Shown: positions 2,181-41,874 of the stretch, piece by piece
Layout of the letters: the number at the start of each line of letters is the position of its first letter
Numbering within the stretch: the first letter of the stretch is position 1
Source: Lophium mytilinum
Taxonomy: Eukaryota
Length of the DNA: 64,000 nt
NCBI GenBank assembly: GCA_010093605.1
Contig: MU004190.1
Span: forward strand, 1,757,599-1,821,598
Direction: 5' to 3'
Notes under the pieces: model-generated
Database searches by the model: none
The model's input: the letters and a program-made list of their open reading frames with translations, nothing else
Told to the model about the DNA's origin: nothing
Position numbers and translations under genes: made by a program

Positions 2181-4355
2181 ATGAGTGCGTCAAAACTTGG
2201 CTCGTCTCCTACACATCTCGAAGCCATGGACTTCATGGATCCCCGGCCAGCGAAGAAGCGGTCGCCCGCGGCCTGCATCATTCCACTGTTGTTGGTTGCG
2301 ATATCACTGCATTGCGTCTGGGAGTTGCTCTCAATGGCTCTCCGCTGCGCATTCTGGATGGCATCGATCCTTCTTTCTCCGTTCCTCCACCTCTTTGTCC
2401 TCGGCTTGGCCGTCTTTGGCCTCTGCATCATGGTCAACGTCGACGCCGATCATTCACCTCCAAGCATCGAGGTGGTTGATTGCGATACGTTTACGACCGA
2501 GAGCACACAAGCAGAGCAACATGCAAAGAGCTACGAGGTGCGTAGAGTACCCAGAGTCTCTTCGGTGCACACTGACAGCATCCAGGTCGAAACTGCGAGC
2601 GCAAGGACTGCTCCATTCACCAAGTTGCCGGCGACCAAGACAGAGTCAGCCAACAGCTCTGAAAGGAAGAAGACTAGGAACATCTTGCAAAACAGCAAGA
2701 TCCCAGTCAAGAAGACTACCGCAAACACCGTGCGAAGCAGCAAGAGGGAGACTCCTAAGTGGACCACGTCCACGGAGAGCAAGTTTCCAATCAGGAAGAC
2801 CACCACGAACACCGTGCGCAACGGCAATGAGGCTCATAGGCCAGCCAAGCCCACTGAAAGCAAGGTTTCAGTCAGGGCGGAGAAGCAGAGCCAGGATATG
2901 TCCTCCAGCTCATCAACTACTTCTATATGCTCTACACCACCCCCTTCGTCAAAGGTTCCGTCCTCGCCGACTTCCTCCGTCTCCTCAAATGCATCTGCCT
3001 CATCGGCCACATCTTCCTCACATAAGGCTTCCGAGTTACAAGATGCCTCTCAGGGGTCTTCCAAGAGCACTCCATCCTCCAATCCCTCTGCTTCCCCCAA
3101 GAGTGCCGTTCCGCCCACAGCGCCTAACGGCTCCGCGACATCCTCCCACCCCCCTTATCCCCACAACTCAGCTAAGACTGGCACTGCGTCGGGACCAACG
3201 CCCGTGCCGGATGATGTTTCTCCAAAAGCTACCGAATCTGAGACTTCGACTACCGGAACTGGTACTGGGTCGACAGCACATGAGAGCAACGATGGCGATG
3301 CAGACTCTGACACCGAGGAGTGTAAGGACTATTTCGTGAACTTCTATGAAGTCCTTCACATTTCACGAGATGCAACCACGGCCCAAATAAGGAAGGCATA
3401 CAAGATGATGGCCATTAAGTACCATCCGGACAAGGCCGCCCCGATGGACAAGGAGAAAGCGGATGAGTTGTTCAAGTTGATCGGAGAGGCAGCTCGCGTC
3501 TTGAAAGACGACTATCTCAGGGCTGGCCATGACGCCAGCATAGATGCGGGACCTGACGCTAAGAAAGCGGAAGGCCCAAATATGGACCCAGTCACCGGCG
3601 TTACATACTACGAGCAACTGGGTCTTCGCAATGGTGCATCTGTTGACGAAGTGTGGCAGCGCTATTGCCAGCTTACGGCCGAGTACGAAGAGATGGTCCG
3701 AGCCGCCATTGCAAATGGCCACGACGTCGATGATGCCGAGCGTGATGCCCTCTTCAAGAAGTCACAGCTAGAGTCTGCGACCGCTGATCTGTGGGATCCG
3801 GTCAAGAAGTCCCATTACGACTTGGAACTTTGGAAGAACTCGAGGATGGGGGGCGAAGAGCCCAACATCCTCACAGCGGTCCCTGGAGGATATGAGGTGG
3901 TAAACCCAGAGCGCGACCCCGGGGAAGAAGTCAGGAGTGAGAGAATGGAAGGCCCCAATGGCGAGACCATTGACGCAGTTGTCTACTCCTACTTTCATCT
4001 AGACAATGGCGCCACGCTTGACGAAGTCTGGGACGCCTACCAGCGAATGATGCGGACTTTCTGTGCCGTGTTCGAGGAGGAGACATCAACACCGGATCAG
4101 AAAGCTTGGGCCAACGAGCTCATTACGGAGTACAATGACTATATGAAGTTCATTGGGGAGCCTATTCACAAGTACTGGTACGATGACTCGTTGTGGAGGG
4201 CGGGCCGCCTGCCGAGTAGGCCAGTTTGGACAGCAGAGGCGGAGCAAGCGGCGAAAGCTAAGAAAGCTGAGCTCGAAGAGACCAAGAAGCCTATTGTGGG
4301 CGGGAAGTATTATGAAGACGATGATGGTGTTCTCAGGCTTTACGAAGAAAGCTAA
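2181..4355 (+). CDS. Membrane-anchored J-domain (DnaJ-like) protein, 724 aa, with one HPD J-domain and two degenerate J-like repeats
   Basis: Intronless ORF. Hydrophobic N-terminal segments, Ser/Thr/Pro-rich linker, then NFYEVLHISRDATTAQIRKAYKMMAIKYHPDK...LFKLIGEAARVLKD (HPD at 3423-3431). Two further J-like units lack HPD (TYYEQLGLRNGASVDEV...DPVKKSHYD; VYSYFHLDNGATLDEV...EPIHKYWYD). Confidence 0.9.
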   Translation: MSASKLGSSPTHLEAMDFMDPRPAKKRSPAACIIPLLLVAISLHCVWELLSMALRCAFWMASILLSPFLHLFVLGLAVFGLCIMVNVDADHSPPSIEVVDCDTFTTESTQAEQHAKSYEVRRVPRVSSVHTDSIQVETASARTAPFTKLPATKTESANSSERKKTRNILQNSKIPVKKTTANTVRSSKRETPKWTTSTESKFPIRKTTTNTVRNGNEAHRPAKPTESKVSVRAEKQSQDMSSSSSTTSICSTPPPSSKVPSSPTSSVSSNASASSATSSSHKASELQDASQGSSKSTPSSNPSASPKSAVPPTAPNGSATSSHPPYPHNSAKTGTASGPTPVPDDVSPKATESETSTTGTGTGSTAHESNDGDADSDTEECKDYFVNFYEVLHISRDATTAQIRKAYKMMAIKYHPDKAAPMDKEKADELFKLIGEAARVLKDDYLRAGHDASIDAGPDAKKAEGPNMDPVTGVTYYEQLGLRNGASVDEVWQRYCQLTAEYEEMVRAAIANGHDVDDAERDALFKKSQLESATADLWDPVKKSHYDLELWKNSRMGGEEPNILTAVPGGYEVVNPERDPGEEVRSERMEGPNGETIDAVVYSYFHLDNGATLDEVWDAYQRMMRTFCAVFEEETSTPDQKAWANELITEYNDYMKFIGEPIHKYWYDDSLWRAGRLPSRPVWTAEAEQAAKAKKAELEETKKPIVGGKYYEDDDGVLRLYEES

Positions 4356-8215: not shown

Positions 8216-8628
8216 GCTATATGTTGTATTTTATGCTATGAGGGTACTATTGATCGTGGGAGTCCCTATCTTAGATTGTGTAAGCGTCCCTTTGGCCGCA
8301 GATCCTAGAAAATATAGATAAGATGGTAAACATACACTAGTAACTCACTTCGGGAGCCTTGCTTATGTCAGCCTCCTCCGCCTTAGACGCTTTTGCCGCC
8401 TCACTTGACGCTTGGATCACCAGTCCACATTCGGCTATTTACAGAACTCTTGGGACCTCACCTCTTCCTCACCACAACACACTTGAAGCAGACTCCACAA
8501 ACCACTTCACCTGAAGCAGACTGCACCAACCTCTTCTCTCAACGCCATCTCACCGTTGTTCGAGAAGCTCTTTCTGTTCACCAGTGTTGTTACCTTCATC
8601 AAGACTTCCACGCTCTACCATAGCTACC

Positions 8629-10473
8629 ATGGACGCTTCCAAAGCAATGAATTCTGAGACACTGTATCTGCAGATTGTCCTCCTATTCCTCCTCACCTTC
8701 ACCGTCATCAAGGTCTTCGATGCCTTGATTACCCTCCTCCTCTGGACCTCACTCGCCCTGGTTTTCCTCACTGCACTTCTCCTCGTCCTTCCTCACTCCA
8801 CTCAGACGGAGCTCGCAACCTCCTGGCGGGACCTCGCCGCGGCCTTGGGGTCTCTCGCGGCCTCTTTGAGGGTCGATGGCACTGTGACGTGGAACGCCGT
8901 CTCTCCGAACGAGTCTTGTCGCCGCAATACACAGGAGGTCGCCGAGGTTAGTAGTGAGCCTCCTCGTCCTTTTCGGCATCACACTGACAGACTGCAGCGT
9001 CATGATACGAGACAAACGTCGACCGCAAGCTCGCCAAAGAGTGGATCGCGCTCTTTCCCCCAGTCACTCGATGCCAATGATAGCCCGTTTACCAGCGCCA
9101 GCGAAGCGACATCGCACAACAAGAAGCAAAACACTCCTAAGCCTATCACACAATCCTCAACCGTCCAGAGCAAGTCGGCCTCTCCTGGCGGTGCAAGTGT
9201 TAAATCAAACCCCGCGCCCGAGAACAGTCTGCATCTTCGAGAACCAAGCGGTGCCCCCATCTTGTCGGCCAAGGTGAATGAGCCGCCCCTGGAGCACGAA
9301 GTTGGACATGATCTTGACAATATGGAAGGCGTGGAAGCCCTCGCAAAAGCCACGGACAACGAAGACAGCGACGAGGTTGTATCTACCCCTAAAGACGCCC
9401 AGAAGTCACATGAAGTCGAGTCCCCGGCATGTCTTCAGAACACTCCAATCAGCACTCCTCTTGATCCAACGGCCACTCTTATTGCCGAAGATCGGGAAGA
9501 AGATAAGGATAAAGTCCAAAAGGCGCAAGACTTCAATCTCAACTTCGAAAGCTACTACGAGGCTCTTGGACTCGTACGTACTGCATCTAAAAAGGACATA
9601 GTCAAGGCATACCGCAAGAAAGCCTTGACCTGTCACCCTGATAAAGTTGCGCCCGAATTCAAGGACGTTGCCGCCAACCTGTTCAAAGTCATTACCGAGG
9701 CGCATGATGTTCTCACAGACGATGCCCTCCGCGTAGACTACGACCGCGGAATTGACATACATGAGAAACCACCTCGGCCCATGTTATACACCCTTCTAAA
9801 CCTCCCAGCGGGTACTCACATTCATTTGGTACGTGAAATGTACGATACCATGTTAGCGGACTACGCCGAGTACGAATACCAGCAAGATTTGGCAAAGAAC
9901 TACGATGCGTCAGGGCAGGCGGTAGCCGACGCCCAGCAACTACGAATTGATATGGAAGAGCTTCTACACCCCGACAGCAAGCTAGCGTACGATCTGAGCC
10001 TGTGGTTTGAAGGGATCTTGACGGGTCCAAAGCCAGACAGGCCCGACCGTATTGATGGTAGCACGGGACCCACCGTGGAGCTCTTCGCGGGCTACCCACA
10101 GCTTAACTCCTACGCTCGACTTTCCCTGCCGCCGGGATGCCCTATGGAGGAAGTCCGTGCGCATTACCAGGTTCTCCACGCCTTGTTCCTGAATGAATGC
10201 AAAGGTGCAACTACGTACGCGGAGCGCAAGGCGCTGGACACGTGCATCATGGACTTAAACAAGATCATGGTGGATTTAGAGAGCACGGTCCGAAAGAGCC
10301 AGTACGACTGGTGCTTGTGGTGTGATTACATCATCGACGGGGAGGAGCCCCAGTGGCTAGTCATGGTGGATGGAGAGGTACAAGTCGGCACCCCGCCTGT
10401 GGCCAACAGCGATGAGGTCGGGCCCGATGTGATTGACGGTGACGAAGAGGGGGACGCGAAGCAGTGGTATTGA
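8629..10473 (+). CDS. Membrane-anchored J-domain (DnaJ-like) protein, 614 aa, paralogue of 2181-4355
   Basis: First ATG at 8629. N-terminal hydrophobic helices, low-complexity linker, then SYYEALGLVRTASKKDIVKAYRKKALTCHPDK (HPD 9634-9642). Two degenerate J-like units follow, ending KLAYDLSLW and RKSQYDWCLW. Confidence 0.9.
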   Translation: MDASKAMNSETLYLQIVLLFLLTFTVIKVFDALITLLLWTSLALVFLTALLLVLPHSTQTELATSWRDLAAALGSLAASLRVDGTVTWNAVSPNESCRRNTQEVAEVSSEPPRPFRHHTDRLQRHDTRQTSTASSPKSGSRSFPQSLDANDSPFTSASEATSHNKKQNTPKPITQSSTVQSKSASPGGASVKSNPAPENSLHLREPSGAPILSAKVNEPPLEHEVGHDLDNMEGVEALAKATDNEDSDEVVSTPKDAQKSHEVESPACLQNTPISTPLDPTATLIAEDREEDKDKVQKAQDFNLNFESYYEALGLVRTASKKDIVKAYRKKALTCHPDKVAPEFKDVAANLFKVITEAHDVLTDDALRVDYDRGIDIHEKPPRPMLYTLLNLPAGTHIHLVREMYDTMLADYAEYEYQQDLAKNYDASGQAVADAQQLRIDMEELLHPDSKLAYDLSLWFEGILTGPKPDRPDRIDGSTGPTVELFAGYPQLNSYARLSLPPGCPMEEVRAHYQVLHALFLNECKGATTYAERKALDTCIMDLNKIMVDLESTVRKSQYDWCLWCDYIIDGEEPQWLVMVDGEVQVGTPPVANSDEVGPDVIDGDEEGDAKQWY

Positions 10474-27991: not shown

Positions 27992-30900
27992 TCACTGCTC
28001 CTCGCCAACATATCGGTCCCTCAGGCGCCTGTTTTCATGTCTTAGCTGTCTGGGTATGTTGTGCCCAAGGTTCTGCTCTTCAGCTTGCCGTCTAGGTTCA
28101 ATTTGACCTAGGCTTTGCACGTGAGCTGGCCGCCGAGACCTGTTGTCACCGAGGCTTTGCGCTTGAGCTGGCCGCCTGATGCTCGAATGGGATACTTTAT
28201 AATTTTTCCTAGTCAGAAGCTGCGGTGAATGGGTATCTGAGCCAGTGGAGAACGACGTCGCTGTGGTGCGTTCGCTGTTCTTGTAGTTCTGCGATACCCC
28301 ACTACTGACTGATTGCTTGTCGGCTAAAACCGATGACTCGGCACTAGAATCGACAAGAGTGGGCCATTCTTGGTCTTCATCTTCGGGAAGGTCAACGGGA
28401 TCGTGACATTCTTCTAAGTCGTCATTTCCATCCTCTTTCCACCGATATTTCCATCCGATGTTGTGTCCAAAGACAACAGCACCGGCATCTGCTAGTCTGC
28501 CTGGCTCTCCAAGGCATAAGCTCTGGTGCCACTTCCTAGGATAAAAGACTTGGACCGGATCGTTGTGGTTCTTGAACAGCCTACGGAATCGTCCACCTGA
28601 ACATTGACAAGTCGCGACGACGTCTCCAGGACAATGCCAGACAAGGCCATGGACTGGTTCCGGAGGGTCCAACCATTTACTGCCAAACTCTGACATGATT
28701 TCTTTCAGATCGACAACACTAGCAGCCAAATAATACCTGGCTGGTGGAAGACTGTTCCATCTGGGGCACATCCCTGGGAACTCAGTGGGCTTAATAATGT
28801 CGCCGAAACCACGGCCAAGCAAAGTGACTGCACCTATTGATCGTACAAAGTCTACCCAGCCATATCCCAGAGCATTAAGAGTAGCAACTCGTGGATGGAA
28901 GTCACGCCCCTTGGCTACGTCTAAGAAATCCCATCCTTCCAGGTGTTTCCGTACCCGCACCTTGATCTTTATCCCGTTCTCTCCCGCTGCTCGTGTCTGG
29001 TGTTCTATGATGTGGAACAGGATGTTGTAGTGTTCCTTAACAAGGTCGACGAACAGATAACTATTCTTCTTTGATTTCAATGTCGTCGACTCTTCAATCT
29101 CGTGACCCCTTTGCTTCTTTTCTTCTTCTTCGGATGCTTCTATCTCTCCCGGGTAGATGGGAAGCCTCATATTTTCCTCGTTGATAAGAACTTCTATCGC
29201 GGAACGTGGGTTGTACTCACTAGCATTGTGCATTTTGCTAGGGTCGAAGAGGAAGCGAGAAGCAAAACTGTCCGTCGCAGAGATGTCCAGCGATGCGCGA
29301 ACCAAATGAAGTAGTGCACTCGTGCCATTGACAAGCCAACCTTTCTTAACAGCTTCGTCCCACAGCACCACGTACTTAGTGTGGAGCAATTTGAGACTCG
29401 GGATGTACCCATTACGGGGAAGGTGGCTGGGGACATCTCGCACGCCAACCGCAATTGACATTCCTACAGAAAGCCATTTCCCCCCGGATACATTCAACTT
29501 CTCGAGCAGGCCGCCGGGGCGAGGTTTTCGAAGGCCAGTACCATCAATGCTGTACTGCGCGTCTTTTGCACCAGCGTAGTACGAACAGTCTGAGCTCCAT
29601 CCCACAACGTGTCGAGAAGAGTCTAGCTGAAGCAAGCTGATATCGTCAGACTTCGGAATGTGATTGTCGAGGTACGAGATCCACTTTCCACTGCGATTGT
29701 AAAGGTAATGCCAAATCATCAGGTCTTTTGCTACTCTCGTAGCAACCAACATGGCCGAATAGCCTTTGATGAAAACCCTCGAATCGAACTCGTTGGCATA
29801 ATCTGCGGCGGTCAGCTTAGCAATCATGTTGAGAGGCATCTCAAGACCCAATTCGTGGGCATGTTTAGTAGATATCGGAAAACCTTGTACCATCACTGGA
29901 TTTCTAAACATGCCATGCCAGCACTGGCCAGGCAAGGCTTCTTCGTTGGCTAGCAGTTGAATCGGAAAATCGATGTTGCAAGACAATTCGACCAGGCGGC
30001 TTTGAAATTGGGCCGTTGTGCTTCCTACACGTGTATTTTGAACGAAAGGTGAGCACACTGCAACCCCTGAATCAAACGATGATGATCGAAGAGCTGCTCC
30101 CAGCCATGCAAATTGTTGGGCAATCTCTGTGACAGAATCGGCAACGCCAACTGCTTTCACTATGACCTTGCGTCTAGGGATTTCGCTTTGAGAGGCTCCG
30201 ATACCAATTTCTGTCCCGTCCGGTAGAGTAGCTAAAGAGTCAATAGTGAAGCAGTTAAGTTAGAGAAAGTACTTACTATTTACTACATGTCCCTTCGGTT
30301 TCTGGACAAGATCTTTCACTAGCTGCATCACTTGGCTTCCAGTTGCCGGCCATGTCTGACGAAGGTACGCCTTTGTGGTCAGCGCCTGCGCATCGTTTGG
30401 ACAACCGGTCAGCGTGACGGCATTCTCCAGCGCCTTTTCGATGGTTTCACTGTATTGCTGCTCTTTCACAAATTCCCATGGGTCCCAATCTAGCTCAAAT
30501 GTTGCCTTATATGGTTGTGAAGGTTGTCTTCTGCTGACTTTTGGTGCGGATGGCAAAGCGGAGAAGATCTCCTCCCTTATGGCCTCCATCAGGTCTGGTG
30601 TTCCTCGCGACAATGTTGCCTCTCTTCGTAGAGTTGCAACAAGCCATTTGTAAGCCGACGTTTCCCGAAGCAAGTCGCGATACTGGTCAGAAGCTGGCAT
30701 TGCTTCGTCGTCATCCTTCTCTGATCTTGAAGTTCCCATGATGTGTTCTTGGTCGATTGGTGCATTCTCTTCTAGGTTATGATAGGTTTCAACTGGCAAT
30801 GCCGTATCCTGATAAGAGTCATTGGGTGGTTCTGCTAAAAACCGCGAAATTGCAAATTCTCCATTATTTGCTTTGTCAGCATCGGGAGATCCTGTGACTT

Positions 30901-33900
30901 CAAGTGAGAACATCTCCTCAAATGAGTATTGTATACCCCTATACGAGAAGTCAACTGAATGAATAGAAGCCGGGGGTGCGATCAGCTTACTTCCGGTACT
31001 TTTCAACAAAGAATGAAATATCTTGATATATCTGAGTCTGGGCTTCGTACCCTATTCTTTGGGCAAATGATCTTAGCAAATCTGGGAGCTTGCTAGAGAC
31101 CTGCTCTAAGGTGCTTTTGTCGAATGCGTAAACCGCCAGTGAGTTGAAAAGATCTGATACCAACAGGTCGATATACCCTTTATCTCTGGGAAATGGTAGA
31201 GTCGAAGTCGCAGAGGCAGAATATATAGATGGTGCAGTATATAGTCCAGGTTGAGGGGTGAACTGTCCCTGATTGACGGAGGGAATAAAGTTAACGCCTG
31301 GACTTATATCGGAGCGTTTGCTTTCAACCGTAACATCGACCCCAATTTGGGAAGTATCAAAACCTGGGGCCGACATCCCGTGAGTTCTGGATGCATAACC
31401 TGAGTCTGCTACCGAGCCCAGGTGCAACTTCTCTACTCGCATGGCTGAATAGTTTCCAAGGAATTCCGAATTCGCTGGGTGATTGGGGTCATGGAAAACC
31501 TCCATTGTGACTCTCTCACTTCTCTCGTTTTGTGTTACTACTTCAATCCTCTCGTATATCCTCATGAGCTCTTGGTCTATCTTATCCGCGTTCTTCAAAT
31601 ATCCTTCGACGGCTAGTGTCCGTGTTGAGCTCTGTTTCCCTAATAGCTTGTCCAGACGCTCCTTTTCAAACACCCGCTCCTTTAGTGCCAGTGTCTCTCG
31701 ATGGATCTCCTCCGCTTCTTTGTACTTCTCCTGAAGTTCGAGTACCGCTACCAAGTTGCTCATGCTCGTAAGCGTTCCCGGGTGCTTCCTCCCTAATACC
31801 TTCTCCTTTAGCGCCAGCGTCTCTCGATTCATCTTCTCCGCCTCCATGTACTTCCCCTGATATTGAAGTGACTGTGCCAAGTTGTTCATACTCGTGAGCG
31901 TGTCTGGGTGCTTCTTTCCTAACACCTTCTCCTTTAATGCTAGCGTCTCTCGGTAGATCTTCTCCGCTTCCTCGAACCTTTTCTGAGATAGTAGTGAGCT
32001 TGCTAAGTTATTCATGCTCTGCAGAGTATTCGGGTGCTCTTTTCCTAACACCTGTTCTGTCAGTGCCAGCGTCTCTCGGCCCAATTTTTCTGCCTCCCTA
32101 AACTTCCCCTGATTATACAGTGAGTTTGCTAAATCGTTTATAGTCGCGAGTGTGCTTGGGTGCTCCCTTCCTAACACCTTCTCTGATCCTGCTAGCGTTT
32201 CACGAATTTTGTCCTCTGCTTCTTTAAACCTCCCCTGACTTTGTAGTGAATGTGCCAGGCTATTCATGCTTGCCAAGGTGTTCTGGTGCTCTTTTCCAAA
32301 CACCTTCTCTAATCCTGCTAGCGTTTCACGAATCATCTTCTCCGCTTCTTTGAACTTTCCCTGATTTTGTAGTGAATGTGCCAGGTTATTCATGCTCGTC
32401 AACGTATCCGGGTGGTCTTTTCCGAACATATTCTCTTTGTGTTCAAGCAACTGTCGATGAGCTAGCTCCGCAGCTTTGAAACGTCCTAGTGTGGACTCAC
32501 ACCATCCTATGCGGTTCAGCAGCGACATCCTGGCCTCCGCTTCATACACTTCAGGTAAACCAACAATGTGGTTAGCATGAGGCAGATATGCTGTCCAGAT
32601 CATTCTCTTGCTGTGACCACCGTATGGGAGAACCTCCACCAGTCGTGTCAGTGCCTTAGCCACGGCACTAGGCCACCTATTGCTCTCTTTCAACCAGTTT
32701 CGAGTTGCTAAATAGACCAGCGCATGAATATCAAAAGTCTCCGGATATTCTTGTATCTGATCTTGCCATTTTTCGTGGGGCTGTCGCTCGGTGATCAAAG
32801 CATATGCTTTCAGAGTATCGATCGCTTTTGCCTTTTCTAACTTGGAACTGCTTAGAGGTAAAATCGATGCGGGGATGCTTTCCCCGGTTGTGCAGGCCAT
32901 GAATGATAGGTATTCCGCTGCTAATTTGTCTTGTTGTTGAATTTGCTGGAAAGAGATATACCATGTCGTGGCTACGGGATTCTTCTTGTTTCCATATCTG
33001 CCCCGGTCTTCGTACTCTTCGCTGAGAAGCTCCATAGCGTTTCTCTCACTGCTTTCGAACATAGTTATGTACTCGGAGAGAGCAATACCATTTTCGTTAA
33101 TGAAAGCCGCTGCTTGAACGATGGCAACGGGGAGGAAGGTCAAAGTCTCTAGGAACCAATGCACCATATCATCATCCTTTGGCATGTCTTTCTGGAGCAG
33201 AAGCTTCCCCAAAACCTCCTTTGCCTCTCCTTCATCTAGTTCGCCCAGTTTGACGGCATTGTTCGGAGCTAGTTTGATTGCAGCCTTTCGGGTCCGGGTC
33301 GTGAAGATAATAGAGCCTTTGCGACTATGCGGGAGGTAGTCAATCAGCCGATTCGCACCGGCTTCCTCTTCAGACGCGCCTAACAGGACGCTGGTGTCGT
33401 CCGCATTGTCCACGATCATCAACCACTGCCCCGAACCTTCATCGCTTAGCCTCGTCTTGACAAGCCGCTTTACATCCGCCTTGGGGTCCGCAATGTCTGG
33501 TATACGTAAGAGCTTCCCTATCGCTAGGTAAGCCTGCTCGAAGGTTTCCCGACTGACTGCAGGTACCCAGAAGATGGCGCGAGTAGGTTGCCGCTCCCTT
33601 GTGCTATAAGCCGCCTCAAGAGCCAGTGCGGTCTTTCCACAGCCACCAAGGCCGTATACCGCAAGTCGCTGGCATCCTTCTGATGAGATATGTGCGCTAA
33701 GCTGAGCGAGGAGCGTTTCTCGGCCGACGAACGATAGAGGTCTCGTGAATGGAACAATCCATGGCGCTGCCGTACGTTAGCATATCAGTCATAGTGATGA
33801 CTCCACCAGCCATGAAGTGAATGTGAAAGTTTGCGTGATTGGAGTAGCTACGGAAAGACACGGTGGTATATCTAGATTCAATGCAAGGAGAATGATGGTC

Positions 33901-35063
33901 TGGTATAGAGCACAAAGCTCTTTTTAGGTAGCTACGCGAGCGAGTACAAGAATTTTCAAGGCGGAAACCCCGTCACGTAGCTTTCGCTACGGATAAAAAT
34001 GCATCAATCTACTGCTAGCTTTGCTCTTACTGTGACCTGTTAAAGACAAGGATTGCAACTAACCTTCAACTGCAGCTTTCATATCCTTAACCACGCCGGG
34101 TTGGATCCTACAGAGCAGCTCTCGGGTGAACGCGGCCGCATTTCCAGCCGCATAAAACTTCCACCTATCGTTCTTATGCGAGTCCGCATAGTCGGAGATG
34201 CCGCGAATGACTAGACACTTTCTGTTGACGTCGACACCCGCTGCTTCCATCTCGACGCAAAGCGCCCCGTCACATCGCGCTCTAATTTGATCTCGTAGCT
34301 CGCCATCCTGGATAACCGAGTTGCCTGTGGCGATTCGCCCTCGATGGAAGACTAACTCGTTCATGTCCTCTTCAGTCCGTTGGGGTCTCTGAACCAGCTG
34401 GCTCTGGTCGCATGCCACGCAGTCAGATCCATAATATCCGATGTGATGGCGGCAGGTAGCCATGAAGAGCCGGTCATGTTCAAGGCCAGGGTGCACAAAC
34501 TTCTTCTTGTTCTTGCGAGTCACCAACCTGGCAAGTTGATGTTCAAATGTAGTCTTTCCCAGCTCATAATCGGAATCGAGGATGCTAAGCGCGTTTTGGA
34601 GCCTCCAGTCGGGGTCCTGCATCGTGCCCATGATCTCAAAATCGCCGTTCACCTTCAACCTTCGCCGGTCGTGGTAGACACAAGCTGGTTTCCCGTCGTC
34701 GGGCCATCCGACTACGACGTCTCCTAAATGAATGTTCTCGAGGGAATCCTCAGACTGTTTCAGAGGAGGGATTCCTCCTCCTATTCCAACGAGCACTGCC
34801 ATTCTGATGTTAGGAAACGTCTTGAACATGGGCCCGCTCAAACGCCCCGCGTTGACATTGGTTTCTCCCGGTGGGCAGGTCACTATGACTACGTTATGGC
34901 TGCCAATCGTGCCGCAGATGTACGTGTTCTCGTCGTAGTCCGAATCGTACGGCGGCGTGGTATGCTCCTCATCCAGCATCAACCGCGCAGGCAGCAGTTC
35001 AACGTCAGCCAGTGGGCATATCCATGCGACATGGTAGTCCGCGCAAGTAAGTTGTGGTGCCAT
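27992..35063 (-). CDS. Fungal NLR: PNP_UDP - NB-ARC - TPR with a long C-terminal extension, 4 exons, ~2225 aa
   Basis: Exons 35063-34064, 33766-30991, 30938-30277 and 30231-27992 (6678 nt, in frame). Introns 34063-33767, 30990-30939 and 30276-30232 are all GT...AG. PNP_UDP motifs VAWICPL, LVGIGGG, CVEMEAAG, IRGISDYADSHKN. Walker A GLGGCGKT and Walker B WLMIVDNADD. Six 42-aa HPDTLTSMNNLA-type TPRs. Confidence 0.85.
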
Positions 35064-35515
35064 TCTTCAAAGTGAATGATCTTGACCCAGAAGAAGGTTT
35101 TGTGCAGGACGAGGCACTTTGCTTCGTCGAGGACAGGTGCACGTAGAAAGCCGCGATCCCTCAGCCTGATCGCACCTTCTATCGCAGCCTTCCTGCGGAC
35201 CCCTCACCGCTCATCTCCGAGGTGCGCCTTCTCATGCACTGTTGGGCATGGACGCGACGTTGCGGCACATGATTGGACGGAAGCAGTTGTGCCTCGCCAA
35301 CTATCCCCTCCCTGGATGCATATGCAGTAGGTAGCCTTAGGCATCAATGAGGCTGAGCCCCGCTCCCAGCTAGCTAGCAAAAAATTTAGTATAATTAAAA
35401 GCATACCACTCTCGTGTCAAGAGATTTTCAGCCTCGAGTGCATACTTGTTGTTTCAGAGCTCGTATACCACATCCAACATTTCCGAAATCATCGTTTCTT
35501 AAGTGTCACCTGATC

Positions 35516-36918: not shown

Positions 36919-39900
36919 TCAAGCAACGATCTCATCTCGCCGTCCACGTCTAGCACATATTGTACAAGCACCCACGTCTACCGTGAAGAAGTTTGGACTA
37001 TGTTCTTTGAAGTTCGTTGCCTTCGTACGAAGTGTTTCCCGCACTGTGTCTGGAGAGTGCTCGAAGAGAAGCGATATGTTTTCGCTTATCTGGTACTCAC
37101 GCATCACCTTGAAATCGTCCGACGAAGTAGGGTAAAAAAATGACCCAACTGCTTGACTGGCTCCTGCTGCTATCATGACTACCTCCTCCGTAATCTTGAG
37201 TTGGTCGCCTAGCTGCTGAAGGAGCAACTCCATAACTTCTTGATTCGTCACTGCTACTTTTAATACCTCTTCCGTGATCTTGACCTCATCTCCCCGCTGT
37301 TCAAGGAGTAGCGCCATCACACCTGCATCCCTCGCTGCTTCTTTCAACACCTCTTCCGTGATTATGAGTTGGTCTCCTAGCTTTTGGAGGAGAAGCCCAA
37401 TTGCTTCACGGTACCCTACTGCTACTTTCAATACCTCTTCCGTAATCTTGACCTCGTCTCCCCGCTCCTTAAGGAGAAGTGCCATCACGTCTTGGTAAAC
37501 ATTCCCTGCTGCTGCCTTGACCACCTCCTCAGTTATTCTAATCTCGTCTCCCCGCTCCTTAAGGAGTAATGCCATTACTCCTTCTCCATTGTTCTCCGCT
37601 GCTGCTTTTAGTACCTTTTCCGTGATCTTAATTTCGTCTCCTCGTTGCTTAAGAAGAAGTTCCATCACTTCTCTCCCACTCCCGTCATTTTTCGCTGCTG
37701 CCGCGAGCGCCTGCTCTGTTATCTTGATCTCTTCTCCTCGCCGGTCAAGGAGAAGTGCTATCACGTCTCTCCCATTGTCCTCATTCCCTGCTGCAGCCTC
37801 AACCACTTTCTCCGTAATCTTGATCTCNNNNNNNNNNNNNNNNNNNNNNNNNNNNNNNNNNNNNNNNNNNNNNNNNNNNNNNNNNNNNNNNNNNNNNNNN
37901 NNNNNNNNNNNNNNNNNNNNNNNNNNNNNNNNNNNNNNNNNNNNNNNNNNNNNNNNNNNNNNNNNNNNNNNNNNNNNNNNNNNNNNNNNNNNNNNNNNNN
38001 NNNNNNNNNNNNNNNNNNNNNNNNNNNNNNNNNNNNNNNNNNNNNNNNNNNNNNNNNNNNNNNNNNNNNNNNNNNNNNNNNNNNNNNNNNNNNNNNNNNN
38101 NNNNNNNNNNNNNNNNNNNNNNNNNNNNNNNNNNNNNTTCCCAATTCCCTGCTGCAGCTTCAACCACCTCCTCCGTAATCTTAATCTCGTCCCCTCGCCG
38201 ATCAAGGAGAAGTGCTATCACGTCTCTCCCATCTTTCAAATTCCTTGCCGCTGCCGTAACCACCTCCTCTATGATCCTGACTTCGTCTCCTCGTTGCTCA
38301 AGCAGAAGCTTCATCACTCCATGATCAAACCACCTTGCGATTTGAACTATGAGGCCAGCTGAGATCTCGAACCTTTCTGCTGCCTCTTGAAGGAGGACAA
38401 CCATTATTTCTTCCCCACTTTTCCTGTTATCTGCTGCTGCTGCGACCACCTTCTGTGTGATCATGAACTTGTCTTCGCGCCGCTTGAGAAAAAGCCCCAT
38501 TAAATCTTTCCCGCGATCTTCATTTGCTGCAGCTGCCTCGAGTGCCTTCGCATAACAGTAGACATTTTGCTCATTCGAGGCTAAGCCGCTATCGAGGAGA
38601 AATTGCGTCTCATTAAGCAGTCTAGATTTCGTCGCGAAGTAGAGCGCTGATTCCTTTGAATCACTAATGTCACGAATGAAAAAGGACGATATTGTATTCA
38701 CATTCGACCGCGTGTGGATTTCAAACCACACACAAGACTGTGGACTCCTTATCTCACAGAGTTTTGCCGCTTTGGAAACCCAGGAGTGGCTATCGATATT
38801 GACGGAAACCCAGGCAGGGCTATTGGTGTCAATTTTCCGCACATGAGAAGTCCAATAGATTGCTGAATAGTCCAAGAATTCATGTGTAATCGTGTATGCC
38901 TTGATTGCTTGCTTTCGTGCATCGTAACCTAGACGGGAATAACCCTGGAGTGTGATCTGTTGAATCTCGTAGAAGTTTAGATAGGCAACGCACTTCATGG
39001 AGAGTACCAAGTTTGCGTCGTGGAGATCAATAGAGTGATGCCAGCTCTGCGGTTGGGGCGATTCGTTGTTCTTTCTTACGAGGAACTCTTTTGCTGTTTG
39101 GTGGATCAAATAGACGCGGGAGTCTACGACGCTGATGAAGAGCCCACAAGCATCACGGAGCCATTCTTTCCTGCCTTGTTCGCCTTCAAGATCAAGATCC
39201 TCGTGGCATGTTGATTCTGGCTCGATCGCTAAAGCCACATCGATTTCGCTTAACGTCAGAGGACGCTGAGCTACAAGAATGATTTGCAACACCGTTTTTG
39301 CGTGTTCCTGCACGCATTTTGCCAGTATTTTCTCATACGCTTCCTCAACTGTCCTTGGCAATGTGTTGATTGTCTTGAGCAACTTCTTCTGCGTCTTTCC
39401 CAGGCCTTCTTCAACTTCGTCTAGCGTCAGGTGTAGCCAGAGGTAGGTTCTATTAGGTACTCGGCTGAGTCGTCTATGCAGAGATGAACGCACGTCTTCA
39501 GCCAGCCTTCGCTTCTTCGCGATTTCTTCGACCTTTGCCTTCATAACGATCCCGATCTCAAGGCTTATCTTCTCTGACTCTCCTTCTCCAGCCAGCCGAA
39601 TAGTCGGGACGTCGTACGTCAAGCTGGAAAATCTTCGCCCGATTTCGCTGTACGGACGGCTAGTCACAAGGAACTTTAATTTGGATCCTGGCACAGAACT
39701 TTTGGAGAGTCTGTTGTAGAAGCGCTCTAGGCAGGTAATGAGTTTGTCTCGATCGGACTTTTGGCATTCGTCCAGTGCATCAAGGACGCAGACAACACTC
39801 CCAGCAGACGGATCCGTTGCAGCCGCTATGAAAATCCGCCATAGTTCTTCAAATTCAAGCTTCATGGCGCCTCCACATTTCTTCACCGCTGGAGCTGCGT

Positions 39901-40408
39901 GTTTATGGAGGAGGTCGTCGTGTGCACAGAAAAACTGATGGAGTATTGCGCATAACGCTGTTGCAGTGTTGTTTTGCTCCTGGTTGTCTTTGAAGAAGAA
40001 ATGGCACAATGTGACGGGTTCGGCGCTGACCAGCTTCTCGTCGACCAATGCTCTCGATAGCACAGATTTGCCGCAGCCGGGATCAGCTGTGAGCCAGAGA
40101 AGGTCGTTGCCGGAGCGGTTCTTCCACGCTTGAAACGTCGGATGTTCAAGGAACCAGACACATGTCTCTGGGACCCGCTCAGGATTGAAGTTCTTGTAAG
40201 ATTCGTAGTTCGAGGTCTTGCAAAAGCTCGGCTGCAGACCTTCGGTAGCAAGTTAGCTAACAGTCGCACGAGTTTTGGAGAGCTTCAGGTGAAACAAACC
40301 TTCATCTCCCACTTGGATGTTTTGTGTTGCCCCGGGCCCAGCGTTGATATCTCCCACATGGATGATTTGTGTTGCCCCTGGCCCAGCGTTGATGTCTTGG
40401 AAAATCAT
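36919..40408 (-). CDS. Fungal NLR: short N-terminal repeated motif - NACHT - winged helix - ankyrin-like helical repeats (spans an assembly gap)
   Basis: Exon 1 40408-40300 (MIFQDINAGPGATQIIHVGDINAGPGATQNIQVGDE). Intron 40299-40240 (GTTTGT...GCTAAC...AAG) contains an in-frame stop. Exon 2 is in frame with KTSNYESYKNFNPERVPETCVWFLEHP...LWLTADPGCGKS (Walker A), CVLDALDEC (Walker B) and LIHQTAKEFL, then 33-38 aa ITEEVVxAAAxN...VMxLLLxxRGDE repeats. The 3' end is approximate. Confidence 0.85.
37828..38137. other. Assembly gap (310 N) inside the NLR repeat domain
   Basis: Run of Ns with the same repeat-coding sequence on both sides. Confidence 1.
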
Positions 40409-40866
40409 TGCGCATTGAGTGGCAAGCTCTTGCGAGGGTGGTGGCCAGGTCGAGAGCTCTCCACCATGGATGGGATGGAGCGGGGACGCGGCATGCTAGG
40501 CCAAGCTGCCTTTTCGACGCCTCTTTCAGGTGTAACGCCAACACCAGCCGCCCCTGGAGGATCATGCAGCCTTACCCAATCGCGGCCGGGTAGCGATCGT
40601 TGCTTTTTCTACCCACCTTGACCGGTGACTTGATGCATCCGACACTCTGGATTGGACGACGTTAGCGAGGCTGAGTGCTAGCTGCATATTCTACAGGAAA
40701 GTCCCCGCAACCGCCTGCGGTCCGGCTCGTGAGGCATTCTTCGCAAAGAGCTACGTGTACTCCGGCCCTTTTAGCTCCTCTGCGTAGTGGGTTCAGCCTT
40801 GCAATCTGTTATACATCATGCTGCCGCCCTGCTTTCTTCACGACCTCAATCTGGTTCATCGCCAAA

Positions 40867-41874
40867 ATGGCTGAACCAATCGGTATCGCCTCTGGCGCTC
40901 TCACCCTTGCCACCTTTGCCTTCAATTCAAGCGTCTCGCTCTACCAGATCGTTAAAAGCTTCCAAAACAGTAAAAGGGACATCCGCGAGCTTAAAGAGGA
41001 ACTCGAGGCGCTCAGCAATGCTATACAGTCTCTCCAAGAACTTGCTTCAAAAGACGAGGTTCAGTTTGAGCCACTTCGCCTACCCTTGCTCCGATGTGGC
41101 GAGACTTGCAAGGGGTTCGGGGAGGTGATTGAGAACTGCACCACGAATTCCAGCAAGCCGAAAACAAGCTTTCGGGATTGGGCAAAGCTGCAATACATGG
41201 GTAAAGATATCGCGGGATTTAAAAACGTGCTCGCTGGGTACAAATCTACCATCCTCATTGCCATTGGTGATGTCAATCTGTAGGTCTTCGCTGCCAGCCC
41301 TTTGCGTACCTTTCAAGCTAACAGCTCCACCTATAGACGCACGGCTGCTGTCAGCGTAGATGCCATTGCAGAGTTTAAGGAAATGCTTGCAAACACGACG
41401 ACCGACCTCGAAGAAAACCGTCAGAATCTCGAAGAACACCTCCAGACAATCAACGATAAACTAGAAACACTCAGCATCCAGAACGGTAGCACGAAGGAGG
41501 AAGAAATAGCAGAGAGAAAACGGATATCCGAGGAGATCGACAGTGTGAAGCAATGTCTCGAAGTATGCAACCACGCAGCAAAACGCATAGACGAAGTGAG
41601 AACGAATATATTTGAGGATGTCTCTGCTGCTGAAGATGCGCATCAAGTCATCGTCTCCACTTTCGGCGATCTTATCTCGGCGAAGCGAGTTACTGCTGGG
41701 GTTAAGTCGATACAGTGGCTAGGGCAGATGCCTGATTCTGCTCTGCAGCAATTGATTCGGACTCGAACAGTTGACTTGTCTAAGCATCCAGGAATGGAGG
41801 AATGCGAGGAAGAGCAGGCCAAGGGACACATGGCATTTGAGGGCATCTATGGAGCTGGTTATACGATGAGCTAG
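40867..41874 (+). CDS. HeLo-like (Helo_like_N / fungal STAND N-terminal type) protein with a two-repeat HET-s-like motif, 2 exons, 316 aa
   Basis: Exon 40867-41279, intron 41280-41336 (GTAGGT...GCTAAC...TAG), exon 41337-41874. N-terminus MAEPIGIASGALTLATFAF, then LRLPLLRCG, TSFRDWAKLQYMGKDI.GFK..LAGYKSTI. Repeat motif at 41605-41730. No NACHT or NB-ARC domain. Confidence 0.85.

What the first reader, a model, noticed from the sequence alone, without database searches (positions are those of the whole stretch)
40300..41874. Candidate new amyloid-signalling pair: an NLR N-terminal motif matches a HET-s-like double repeat in the divergent HeLo-like neighbour
Seen: the NACHT NLR has no N-terminal effector domain, only a 36-codon first exon, MIFQ-DINAGPGATQIIHVG-DINAGPGATQNIQVG-DE (two 15-aa repeats, 13/15 identical). 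The head-to-head gene encodes a HeLo-like domain with a hydrophobic, Gly-containing N-terminus (MAEPIGIASGALTLA). Its two pseudo-repeats lie 23 aa apart: NIFEDVSAAEDAHQVIVST and ISAKRVTAGVKSIQWLGQM (41605-41730). NLR IFQDINAGPGATQII aligns ungapped to effector IFEDVSAAEDAHQVI (7/15 identical, alternating hydrophobic pattern kept). Established: in Podospora, NWD2 uses an N-terminal R0 motif to template the two-repeat beta-solenoid of adjacent HET-S, whose HeLo domain then kills the cell. HET-s R1, recalled as NSAKDIRTEERARVQLGN, aligns in register with both effector repeats (SAK.[VI].....[SA]...LG). Inference: an analogous receptor/executioner system with a distinct motif. It has short repeat spacing, a conserved Gln, a ~47 aa tail ending YGAGY, and a duplicated, Pro-containing trigger on the NLR. 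I cannot tell whether published HRAM/sigma/PP/PUASM surveys already include it.
Basis: partly seen in the sequence, partly recalled or inferred. Interest (0 to 1): 0.92.

Follow-up and report, generated by a model that had tools for sequence, protein, structure and literature searches.

The report
HET-s-like NLR and executioner pair
A fungal immune-receptor gene and the neighbouring cell-death gene share a short motif that is predicted to stack into a HET-s-type amyloid fold, so this looks like a new variant of the known fungal amyloid-signalling switch.

Summary
A NACHT NLR on the minus strand starts with a 36-codon exon carrying a tandemly duplicated motif. It lies head-to-head with a PigL_N (HeLo-like, PF17111) gene whose tail holds two pseudo-repeats 23 residues apart.

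New evidence:
- The NLR motif and its reading frame recur in two relatives, a Decorospora NLR and metagenome locus L014. L014 has the same head-to-head pair.
- Profile HMMs of each rung rank the three motif-bearing NLR N-termini first to third among 122 NLR N-termini.

- The tail is not specific to this pair. It is a strongly conserved extension of hundreds of PigL_N protein clusters. Of 48 metagenome loci, only L014 has a motif-bearing NLR neighbour.
- In L014 the NLR motif matches repeat 2 better than repeat 1.
- No sequence-level match to published HET-s or HELLF motifs was found.

Verdict: probably (about 0.55) an HRAM-like amyloid-signalling pair, a new variant of a known kind. Amyloid formation, templating and killing are inferred, not shown.

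The parts
40300..40408 (-). NLR exon 1 (36 codons plus the first base of a split Gly codon). It carries the r0 motif MIFQDINAGPGATQIIHVG followed by a second partial copy, DINAGPGATQNIQVG.
   Evidence: Translation. It starts at the first in-frame ATG of its ORF. The same motif and the same Met position occur in Decorospora P0007 and L014.
40304..40397 (.). 45-bp tandem duplication that creates the second motif copy
   Evidence: Tandem Repeats Finder: period 45, 2.1 copies, 91% matches, no indels.
40240..40299 (-). NLR intron 1 (60 nt, GT..AG, gctaac branch site)
   Evidence: Sequence. The spliced junction matches homologues (...EDLQPSFFKTSNY). The public model P0005 uses the +1 frame of exon 1 and another acceptor, and so skips the conserved LQPSF..YESYK stretch.
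38138..40239 (-). NLR exon 2 up to the assembly gap: NPHP3_N/NACHT (about 39656-40168), DUF7069, a winged-helix domain, and the first DUF7104 repeats
   Evidence: Translation; Pfam (NPHP3_N 4e-39, DUF7069 2.6e-13, GPIID_WHD 2.3e-6, DUF7104 2.4e-39).
36919..37827 (-). C-terminal part of the NLR after a 310-N gap (37828-38137): seven more DUF7104 repeats and the stop codon
   Evidence: Pfam DUF7104 5.3e-73, 7 stretches; N run located. Frame continuity across the gap cannot be checked.
40409..40866 (.). 458-bp intergenic region between the two divergent start codons, presumably a shared promoter region
   Evidence: Coordinates. The equivalent spacer in L014 is 280 bp. Promoter function is inferred.
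40867..41283 (+). Effector exon 1: a hydrophobic Gly-rich N-terminus (MAEPIGIASGALTLATFAF) and the first 138 positions of PigL_N (HeLo-like)
   Evidence: PF17111, 1.1e-54; identical to public protein P0290.
41284..41336 (+). Effector intron (53 nt, GT..AG, gctaac branch site)
   Evidence: Sequence. The spliced product equals P0290.
41337..41598 (+). Effector exon 2, first part: the end of the PigL_N domain, a long helical hairpin
   Evidence: Pfam (profile positions 140-209). AF2 gives helices 6-47 and 53-86 of P0004.
41599..41667 (+). Rung 1 (R1): RTNIFEDVSAAEDAHQVIVSTFG, P0004 residues 88-110
   Evidence: AF2 strands 89-93 and 102-107, pLDDT 89-95. Near-invariant N90, Q103, T108, G110 in 148 sequences. 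Best match of the window's NLR motif within the tail.
41668..41736 (+). Rung 2 (R2): DLISAKRVTAGVKSIQWLGQMPD, P0004 residues 111-133
   Evidence: AF2 strands 112-116 and 125-130. Near-invariant L112, A115, Q126, G129, Q130, D133. In L014 this rung reads ..ITAGVGATQW.. and is the best match of its own NLR motif.
41734..41874 (+). Post-repeat helix (P0004 133-144), a variable linker, and the conserved C-terminal aromatic/Gly motif FEGIYGAGY (41836-41862), then the stop codon
   Evidence: AF2 helix 133-144; low pLDDT (53-59) beyond residue 150. Family consensus F..R.G.G..L at the C-terminus.

Best explanation
This is a two-gene regulated-cell-death module of a Dothideomycete. The proteins are identical to those of Lophium mytilinum.

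Components:
- Receptor: a NACHT NLR with DUF7104 sensor repeats. In place of an effector domain it has a 19-residue N-terminal r0 motif, here partly duplicated.
- Executioner: a divergently transcribed HeLo-like (PigL_N) protein. It has a hydrophobic N-terminal helix and a C-terminal tail made of two 23-residue rungs.

Proposed mechanism, by analogy with NWD2/HET-S and FNT1/HELLF:
1. Ligand-driven oligomerisation of the NLR brings the r0 motifs together.
2. They adopt the rung fold: hydrophobic residues at positions 5, 8, 10 and 18, and a Gln ladder at position 16.
3. They template or extend the beta-solenoid of the effector tail.
4. That releases the HeLo-like domain to attack the membrane.

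Shown here: gene structures, the domains, conservation of the motif and of the gene pair, the predicted fold, and the profile-level likeness of r0 to the rungs.

Inferred: amyloid formation, templating, membrane attack and cell death.
For: 1. Architecture: a short N-terminal exon plus NACHT, head-to-head with a PigL_N gene.

2. r0 is real and conserved.
- Decorospora P0007 starts MNFANISAGPGATQIIQV..EDLQPSFF.
- L014 starts MNIKDVYVGAGATQIIQVKPE.
- In all three, the Met sits 13 residues before the Gln.

3. The pair recurs. In L014 a 65%-identical NLR lies head-to-head with a tail-bearing PigL_N gene.

4. Predicted fold of the tail.
- AF2 gives two rungs with the same strand pattern: mean pLDDT 82.4 for exon 2 and 89.2 for the tail alone.

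5. HMMs of R1, R2 and R1+R2 were built from 148 tails, of which the window's own is 1. Among 122 NLR N-termini they rank the window, L014 and P0007 first to third in all three searches.
- R1 profile: 16.8, 8.5 and 5.2 bits for the window, P0007 and L014; best other 3.2.
- R2 profile: 13.0, 11.1 and 9.3 bits for the window, L014 and P0007; best other 0.5.

6. L014's r0 best matches its own R2 in register (score 31). The maximum over 200 background windows is 27, and 6 of 500 shuffles reach 31.

7. r0 carries fewer charges than the rungs (E to Q; AED to GPG). Daskalov et al. report the same trend for r0 motifs (PMC4518210, section 7).

8. Related NLRs carry other short motifs at the same position: 8 SIQxNGP, 4 PP-like and 3 QAGRDVN among 28 with short N-termini. 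This fits a swappable signalling slot.
Against: - The tail is a very conserved, widespread family feature: 533 representative clusters at E<=1e-3, including Aspergillus and Histoplasma proteins.
- Most such genes have no NLR beside them. Only 2 of 48 metagenome loci gave a NACHT hit by tblastn, and only L014 has a motif-bearing one. None of 100 ORFs from 12 long loci carried NACHT or NB-ARC. For published HRAM proteins the figure is 98 of 155 with an NLR neighbour.
- A confident AF2 monomer fold may mean a stable native domain rather than a disordered prion-forming region.
- Pairwise similarity is only moderate: 1 of 200 background windows reaches the window's score of 38.
- The NLR motif scores even higher (44) against a segment inside the PigL_N domain. 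Two of 200 background windows reach 43.
- No sequence-level link to HET-s or HELLF: no PF11558 hit at E<=1, and no HET-s or HELLF chain at E<=10 with the tail profile.
- Only two pairs with both partners are in hand.
- The window's R2 has diverged (GVKSIQ versus GPGATQ in r0).
- The NLR reading frame is interrupted by an assembly gap, so its intactness is unproven.
Confidence: 0.55

Rival explanations
1. The tail is a constitutively folded beta-solenoid module of the PigL_N family, for example a cap, an oligomerisation element or an auto-inhibitory element. It works without any NLR. The NLR next door signals through another partner or none, and its likeness to the rungs is convergence of beta-arch-prone sequences or chance.
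For: - Very strong conservation over hundreds of clusters.
- High-confidence AF2 monomer fold.
- No NLR neighbour in 46 of 48 loci by tblastn, and none among 100 ORFs of 12 long loci.
- The pairwise score is reached by 1 of 200 background windows.
- A higher-scoring match to a helical-domain segment shows that such scores can arise without meaning.
Against: - The three motif-bearing NLRs are the top three of 122 against both rung profiles, with a clear gap to the rest.
- The head-to-head pair is conserved at 65% NLR identity.
- L014's r0 and its own R2 share G.GATQ in register.
- The Met-to-Gln spacing is identical in the three NLRs.
Confidence: 0.25
2. The NLR motif belongs to a described class, such as PP/RHIM-like (it ends in IQVG) or PUASM-like (Gly/Gln-rich). 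It would then pair with an unlinked effector carrying the same motif at its C-terminus, and the PigL_N neighbour is incidental.
For: - Close NLR homologues do carry PP-like N-termini such as NLGLQVGINHGN (4 of 28 with short N-termini).
- The second copy ends NIQVG.
- Signalling between non-adjacent genes is suspected for other motifs (PMC9815663, section 27).
Against: - No N.G.Q.G.N or F.G.G.Q..G.G.F pattern occurs anywhere in the six frames of the window.
- No Pfam hit for exon 1 at E<=1.
- PUASM is reported only with PNP_UDP effectors.
- No other G.GATQ or matching C-terminal motif occurs in the window.
- The rung profiles pick out these NLRs.
- The rest of the genome could not be searched.
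Confidence: 0.07
3. The NLR is a decaying or mis-assembled gene, or exon 1 is not translated. The motif would then be a relic or an untranslated leader, and the recent 45-bp duplication would be neutral slippage.
For: - The public gene model uses another frame of exon 1 and is truncated at 417 aa.
- There is a 310-N gap inside the repeat region.
- Tail-bearing relatives of the G.GATQ subtype carry an in-frame stop in four loci (L024, L026, L027, L028).
- No expression data could be obtained.
Against:
- The ORF is open on both sides of the gap.
- The duplication keeps the frame and has no indels.
Confidence: 0.08

Closest known systems
FNT1/HELLF of Podospora anserina (HRAM4 motif; HeLo-like effector; amyloid structure 6eka)
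   Same: - The effector is a HeLo-like (PF17111) domain followed by two pseudo-repeats, and the partner NLR has one r0 motif at its N-terminus.
- R2 of the window aligns without gaps to the published HELLF r2 row over 30 positions, with ..S...[LV]T....S....GQM shared (my own reading of the row).
   Different: - The inter-repeat loop is 2 aa instead of 6.
- Gln is at motif position 16, not 18.
- R1 lacks the Gly at position 19.
- A conserved helix and about 35 further residues follow R2.
- No sequence-profile hit to HELLF at E<=10.
- The NLR here has DUF7104 repeats.
NWD2/HET-S of Podospora anserina (HRAM1; HeLo domain; amyloid structures 2rnm and 2kj3)
   Same: - The logic is the same: NLR r0, a two-rung beta-solenoid tail, a pore-forming N-terminal domain, and adjacent genes.
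- The window's R2 (ISAKRV....S...LGQ) resembles HET-s r1 (NSAKDI....A...LGN), as printed in the supplement.
   Different: - The effector domain is HeLo-like (PF17111), not HeLo. PF14479 scores only E 0.087.
- No PF11558 hit.
- The loop is 2 aa versus 15 aa.
- A Gln ladder replaces the Val/Leu core at position 16.
- No basic residue at position 15.
HRAM5 subfamily (Daskalov, Dyrka and Saupe 2015, PMC4518210)
   Same: Gln at position 16, which is stated to characterise HRAM5. The pattern A14-x-Q16-h-h-G19 is seen in the supplement row whose motif 1, motif 2 and r0 end ..ARQLVG..ARQMGG and ..SRQIVG. I assign that row to HRAM5 myself; the supplement does not label it.
   Different: - Strings typical of the window's tail family (FEDV, QQLS, VSTL) are absent from the 155-protein HRAM table.
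- Arg at position 15 is not conserved.
- The loop is 2 aa, whereas 154 of 155 published loops are 6-18 aa.
- The family was cut off at <310 aa in that study, and the window's protein is 316 aa.
PP (RHIM-like) and PUASM motifs of fungal NLRs (PMC9815663)
   Same: A short Gly/Gln-rich N-terminal motif on a NACHT NLR of the same clade; related NLRs carry PP-like motifs.
   Different: The consensus patterns N.G.Q.G.N and F.G.G.Q..G.G.F are absent. PUASM pairs with PNP_UDP effectors, not HeLo-like ones.

Membership tests
HRAM (HET-s-related amyloid motifs, PMC4518210) | Two pseudo-repeats of about 21 aa in the C-terminal region of a HeLo, HeLo-like or sesA protein | tested here: met
   R1 and R2 have a 23-residue period and the same predicted strand pattern. 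The effector is PF17111.
HRAM (HET-s-related amyloid motifs, PMC4518210) | Perfectly conserved Gly at motif position 19 in each repeat | tested here: not met
   R2 has it (G129, at least 90% conserved in 148 sequences). R1 has Val at 19 in the window and in the family consensus (QVIVST.G), with its Gly four residues later (G110).
HRAM (HET-s-related amyloid motifs, PMC4518210) | Hydrophobic residues at positions 5, 8, 10, 16 and 18 | tested here: inconclusive
   Positions 5, 8, 10 and 18 are hydrophobic or Ala in R1, R2 and the three r0 motifs. Position 16 is a near-invariant Gln (Q103, Q126), which the paper allows only for HRAM5.
HRAM (HET-s-related amyloid motifs, PMC4518210) | Loop of 6-18 residues between the repeats (154 of 155 published cases) | tested here: not met
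   Two residues separate 21-aa motifs here, so the 23-residue rungs are contiguous. The paper lists one such case among 155.
HRAM (HET-s-related amyloid motifs, PMC4518210) | Preference for Arg or Lys at position 15 | tested here: not met
   His (R1), Ile (R2) and Thr (r0) in the window. The family consensus has no basic residue there.
HRAM (HET-s-related amyloid motifs, PMC4518210) | Adjacent NLR gene with a single N-terminal r0 motif that resembles r1/r2 | tested here: met
   Met in the window and in L014. It is not a family-wide property: only 1 of 48 tail-bearing loci has such an NLR. The window's r0 is partly duplicated.
HRAM (HET-s-related amyloid motifs, PMC4518210) | Two-rung beta-solenoid fold | tested here: met
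HRAM (HET-s-related amyloid motifs, PMC4518210) | Detectable sequence similarity to known members (Pfam PF11558, or solved HET-s/HELLF chains) | tested here: not met
   No PF11558 hit at E<=1. The tail profile A4 finds no HET-s or HELLF chain at E<=10. Only 38 of 155 published HRAM proteins match PF11558, so this test is weak.
HRAM (HET-s-related amyloid motifs, PMC4518210) | Amyloid and prion formation, and r0-to-r1/r2 cross-seeding | not testable with these tools
   This needs peptides or in vivo reporters.
PP (pseudo-palindromic, RHIM-like) motif | N-x-G-x-Q-x-G-x-N, or a G-hydrophobic-Q-hydrophobic-G core | tested here: not met
   The regex N.G.Q.G.N has no match in any frame of the window. 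Exon 1 holds IQVG but not the G-x-Q-x-G core. No Pfam hit for exon 1 at E<=1.
PUASM | F-x-G-x-G-x-Q-x-x-G-x-G-x-F, and association with a PNP_UDP effector | tested here: not met
   The pattern is absent from the window, and the neighbour is PigL_N, not PNP_UDP. Definition from PMC9815663, section 24.
sigma motif | Match to the sigma profile (Pfam NACHT_sigma; the name is recalled) | tested here: inconclusive
   No Pfam family at all hit exon 1 at E<=1. A 36-residue query and HMMER's filters make this a weak test.
Fungal NACHT NLR | P-loop NTPase of NACHT type, followed by a winged helix and C-terminal repeats | tested here: met
   GCGKS Walker A. NPHP3_N 4e-39, NACHT 4.3e-5, GPIID_WHD 2.3e-6, and DUF7104 repeats at 2.4e-39 and 5.3e-73. 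3226 homologues at E<=1e-3.
HeLo-like / PigL_N (PF17111) | Full-length match to PF17111 starting at the N-terminal hydrophobic segment | tested here: met
   Profile positions 1-138 in exon 1 (1.1e-54) and 140-209 in exon 2 (1.2e-9). PF17111 is the Helo_like_N family of PMC9815663.

The most novel reading that the evidence does not exclude
The conserved C-terminal extension found on hundreds of PigL_N (HeLo-like) protein clusters across Ascomycota, including Aspergillus and Histoplasma, may be an unrecognised, compact HET-s-type beta-solenoid trigger module. Its consensus is N.FEDV..ADD..QVIVST.GDLISAKRVTAG.RS.QWLGQMSD. It would have 23-residue rungs, a Gln ladder and almost no loop.

The Lophium, L014 and Decorospora NLRs would then be a lineage that evolved an N-terminal mimic of one rung to plug into that module. 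If so, amyloid-type control of HeLo-like executioners is far more common than the known motif families suggest. Most of these executioners would be fired by unlinked NLRs or by NLR-independent triggers.
Probability: 0.35. Interest if true: 0.75.

Novelty: new variant of a known kind. Interest (0 to 1): 0.6.

Why it matters
Fungal NLR-to-executioner signalling by amyloid templating is known for five motif families: HRAM, sigma, PP and PUASM 1-2 (PMC12261475, passage).

This pair would add a variant with contiguous 23-residue rungs and a Gln ladder. It also ties that variant to a very large, strongly conserved tail family on HeLo-like proteins, which the 2015 HRAM table does not contain.

The public gene model of the NLR reads exon 1 in the wrong frame. 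Protein-based surveys therefore cannot see the receptor-side motif. That is a general warning for motif surveys that rely on predicted proteomes.

If the wider reading holds, many HeLo-like proteins of medically and industrially important moulds carry a testable amyloid switch.

Tried and rejected
- Whole-genome search for other motif carriers: no genome is held for this window.
- Word-index search with the exon-1 ORF (40 aa, 'longer'): no candidates. It also missed P0007, which shares five words with the query, so the blank means little.
- Internal-duplication idea, that the tail arose from the PigL_N segment FKNVLAGYKSTILIAIGDVN: hhalign of the two regions over 30 full-length relatives gave E 0.68. 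Rejected at family level. The high pairwise score of the window's NLR motif to that segment (44) is not repeated by L014's NLR (18).
- Expression: no RNA holder listed. The one run laid gave a single 175-nt contig over 41694-41868 and no joints. It says nothing about the introns.
- Structure search with the whole exon-2 model was swamped by helical-hairpin matches, so the tail was folded alone.
- Profile of A3 against PDB sequences was dominated by coiled-coil noise. It was repeated with the tail-only alignment A4.
- Supplements of PMC9815663: motif strings were not found in the 11 files searched; files 2, 9 and 10 were not searched. Canonical HRAM strings are not found there either. These files seem to hold no sequences, so this says nothing about whether that survey includes the motif. 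Its motif logos are in figures that I could not see.
- L031's neighbouring NLR (23% identity, convergent orientation) has a long N-terminal domain and no short motif, so it was not counted as a pair.
- ESM Atlas look-alikes of the tail returned only the family itself plus weak beta-helix rows.
- Earlier-findings look-ups returned nothing relevant.
- Full-text searches: the strings WLGQMSD, GDLISAKR and LGQMSD are in no paper; GDLISA occurs in five papers, none on fungal NLRs or amyloid motifs by title. The search for HRAM + beta-solenoid + HeLo-like + AlphaFold from 2021 listed four papers, and no title points to a further HRAM family (search listing only).
Full report
**What is there**

The region holds two divergently transcribed genes whose start codons lie 458 bp apart.

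The minus-strand gene:
- It opens with a 36-codon exon (40408-40300) reading MIFQDINAGPGATQIIHVGDINAGPGATQNIQVGDE.
- The second copy of the motif comes from a 45-bp tandem repeat at 40304-40397, with 2.1 copies, 91% matches and no indels.
- A 60-nt GT..AG intron (40299-40240) joins it in frame to LQPSFCKTSNYESYKNFNPERVPETCVWF... and a GCGKS P-loop.
- Pfam finds NPHP3_N (4e-39), NACHT, DUF7069 and a winged helix, then DUF7104 repeats on both sides of a 310-N assembly gap.

The plus-strand gene:
- It spans 40867-41283 and 41337-41874 and gives a 316-aa protein.
- That protein is letter-for-letter the public Lophium mytilinum protein P0290.
- PigL_N (PF17111, the Helo_like_N family of the NLR literature) covers it up to residue 78 of exon 2.
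- The last 100 residues have no Pfam family at E<=1.

**Is the NLR's first exon real?**

The public model of the NLR (P0005, 417 aa) starts MWEISTLGPGQHKTSKWEMK. That is the +1 frame of the same exon, spliced to a later acceptor, and it skips a stretch that all close homologues keep.

- The Decorospora gaudefroyi homologue P0007 (70% identity) starts MNFANISAGPGATQIIQVKAEDLQPSFFKTSNY.
- A metagenome relative, L014 (65% identity over 424 aa), encodes MNIKDVYVGAGATQIIQVKPE, followed by an intron and DLQPSFFKTSTYESYK.
- In all three the Met lies 13 residues before the Gln.
- Both relatives have one copy of the motif, so the duplication in the window is recent and private.

Of 120 listed homologues, 28 have a short N-terminus before the conserved FFKTS stretch. 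They carry different short motifs there: 8 SIQxNGP, 4 PP-like, 3 QAGRDVN and 1 of the present class. This is what one expects of a slot for exchangeable signalling motifs.

**The effector tail is a family feature**

A phmmer search of the last 118 residues against 1.84 billion representatives gave 533 proteins at E<=1e-3 and 243 at E<=1e-10.

The alignment of 148 sequences gives this consensus: R.NVFEDV..ADD..QVIVST.GDLISAKRVTAG.RS.QWLGQMSD.SLQQLS ... F..R.G.G..L. Near-invariant positions are N90, Q103, T108, G110, L112, A115, Q126, G129, Q130 and D133. Named members include Aspergillus, Histoplasma, Stagonosporopsis and Paraphoma proteins.

The tail is therefore not specific to this pair. Strings typical of it are absent from the 155-protein HRAM table of Daskalov et al. 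2015 (that study kept only proteins under 310 aa). No paper in the searchable library holds the longer consensus strings WLGQMSD, GDLISAKR or LGQMSD.

**Predicted structure**

With the 148-sequence alignment, AlphaFold2 folds exon 2 at mean pLDDT 82.4:
- a helical hairpin (6-47, 53-86);
- strands 89-93 and 102-107;
- strands 112-116 and 125-130;
- a helix (133-144).

Blocks 81-140 have pLDDT 85-95. The tail alone gives the same pattern at mean pLDDT 89.2. This amounts to two rungs with a 23-residue period.

By sequence there is no link. No PF11558 hit was found. A tail-only profile finds no HET-s or HELLF chain at E<=10.

**Does the NLR motif match the rungs?**

I number positions as in the HRAM paper, with Met of r0 as position 3 and Gln as position 16. 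On that numbering the three r0 motifs, R1 and R2 align without gaps:
- hydrophobic or Ala residues at positions 5, 8, 10 and 18;
- a small residue at position 14;
- Gln at position 16.

Pairwise scores for the window:
- r0 against R1 scores 38. That score is reached by 0 of 500 shuffles and by 1 of 200 unrelated windows.
- The whole exon scores 44 against a segment inside the PigL_N domain. Two of 200 background windows reach 43.
- Pairwise scores alone are therefore weak evidence.

Rung profiles are the better test. HMMs of R1, R2 and R1+R2 were searched against 122 NLR N-termini, and the window, L014 and P0007 rank first to third in all three searches:
- R1 profile: 16.8, 8.5 and 5.2 bits for the window, P0007 and L014; best other 3.2.
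- R2 profile: 13.0, 11.1 and 9.3 bits for the window, L014 and P0007; best other 0.5.

In L014 the best match of r0 in its own effector is R2, in register: MNIKDVYVGAGATQ against ISAKRITAGVGATQ. The score is 31, the background maximum is 27 of 200 windows, and 6 of 500 shuffles reach it. Decorospora's r0 also fits that R2 (ISAGPGATQ against ITAGVGATQ).

The published trend that r0 resembles r2 and carries fewer charges is seen here as well. The window's own R2 has drifted to GVKSIQ.

**Genomic association**

Of 48 metagenome loci that encode the tail, tblastn with the NLR found a NACHT in two:
- L014 is a true head-to-head homologue of the window's pair.
- L031 has a convergent 1416-aa NLR with a long N-terminal domain and no short motif.

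Pfam scans of 100 ORFs of at least 170 aa (100 of the 101 listed) from 12 long loci found no NACHT or NB-ARC. The neighbours are ordinary genes such as CDC45, ATG17-like and isocitrate lyase.

Many of the 48 loci are near-identical copies from related samples, so the independent count is smaller. Four loci of the G.GATQ subtype (L024, L026, L027, L028) carry an in-frame stop in R2.

NLR linkage is therefore the exception in this family. For published HRAM proteins, 98 of 155 have an NLR neighbour.

**Interpretation**

The most likely reading (0.55) is an NWD2/HET-S-like or FNT1/HELLF-like module. The NLR's r0 nucleates or extends the two-rung solenoid of the neighbouring HeLo-like protein.

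The main rival (0.25) is that the solenoid is a native, NLR-independent part of the PigL_N family and the NLR's likeness to it does not signify templating. Against that rival stand the profile test, the conserved pair and the shared G.GATQ in L014.

As for family membership, the tail meets the double-repeat, NLR-neighbour and predicted-fold criteria of HRAM. It fails the Gly-19 criterion (in R1), the loop-length criterion and the basic-15 criterion, and it shows no sequence-level match. I therefore file it as working like HRAM and as a new variant, not as a member of HRAM1-5.

**What I read**
- PMC9815663: outline, sections 19, 24 and 33, and passages. Its supplements could not inform the question.
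- PMC4518210: abstract, section 3 part 1, section 7, and supplement 2 (part 1 and string searches).
- PMC12261475: passages only.

I cannot exclude that the 2022 survey's unassigned motifs (for example NLR34 or NLR40) overlap this one. Their logos are in figures that I could not see.

Noticed in passing
window 27995-35066 (minus strand): A second NLR-like gene lies just upstream of the pair. An ORF with a PNP_UDP_1 domain (34062-35066) is followed on the same strand by a 929-aa ORF full of TPR_10/TPR_12 repeats (30990-33776). This looks like a PNP_UDP-NBD-TPR receptor, so the region may be a small NLR cluster.
   Followed up: partly
window 40300-40359 (minus strand): The public gene model of the NLR (P0005) starts in the +1 frame of exon 1 (MWEISTLGPGQHKTSKWEMK) and is truncated at 417 aa. 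The amyloid-like motif is therefore invisible in the deposited proteome.
   Followed up: yes
window 41218-41280 (effector residues 118-137): The window's NLR motif gives its best ungapped match (score 44) to FKNVLAGYKSTILIAIGDVN, inside the PigL_N domain, and 41 to the same segment of L014's effector. L014's own NLR scores only 18 there, and family-level hhalign of this region against the tail is negative. This is unexplained and probably chance.
   Followed up: partly
window 37828-38137: A 310-N assembly gap sits inside the array of near-identical DUF7104 repeats of the NLR. The repeat number and the continuity of the frame are unknown.
   Followed up: no
L024, L026, L027, L028 (about 10094 in the long loci; about 5099 in L026): Four near-identical metagenome loci encode a G.GATQ-type tail with an in-frame stop in place of the conserved Trp of R2 (..GVGATQ*LGQMSD..). 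No NACHT was found within 10 kb. They may be decayed orphan effectors.
   Followed up: partly
P0291, P0292, P0293: Some relatives repeat the module 'coiled coil + R1-like segment' two or three times before the complete tail, so the unit can duplicate internally.
   Followed up: no
L017 7251-10318; L019 7230-10306: Two PigL_N genes lie head-to-head or in tandem in these loci. These are paralogue pairs rather than NLR pairs.
   Followed up: no
NLR homologues P0006, P0008, P0009, P0018, P0023, P0024, P0025, P0027: Eight close NLR homologues share another short N-terminal motif (..GNSIQINGPVHGNV..) at the same position. I could not assign it to a described class.
   Followed up: no
cluster of P0160: Full-length 310-aa relatives of the G.GA[TI]Q subtype occur on many contigs of about 1-1.6 kb in environmental data, a size that would fit spliced transcripts. 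This is a guess and was not checked.
   Followed up: no
window 2163-4352 and 8515-10470 (plus strand): Two long ORFs each carry a DnaJ domain in the middle. They are probably paralogues.
   Followed up: no
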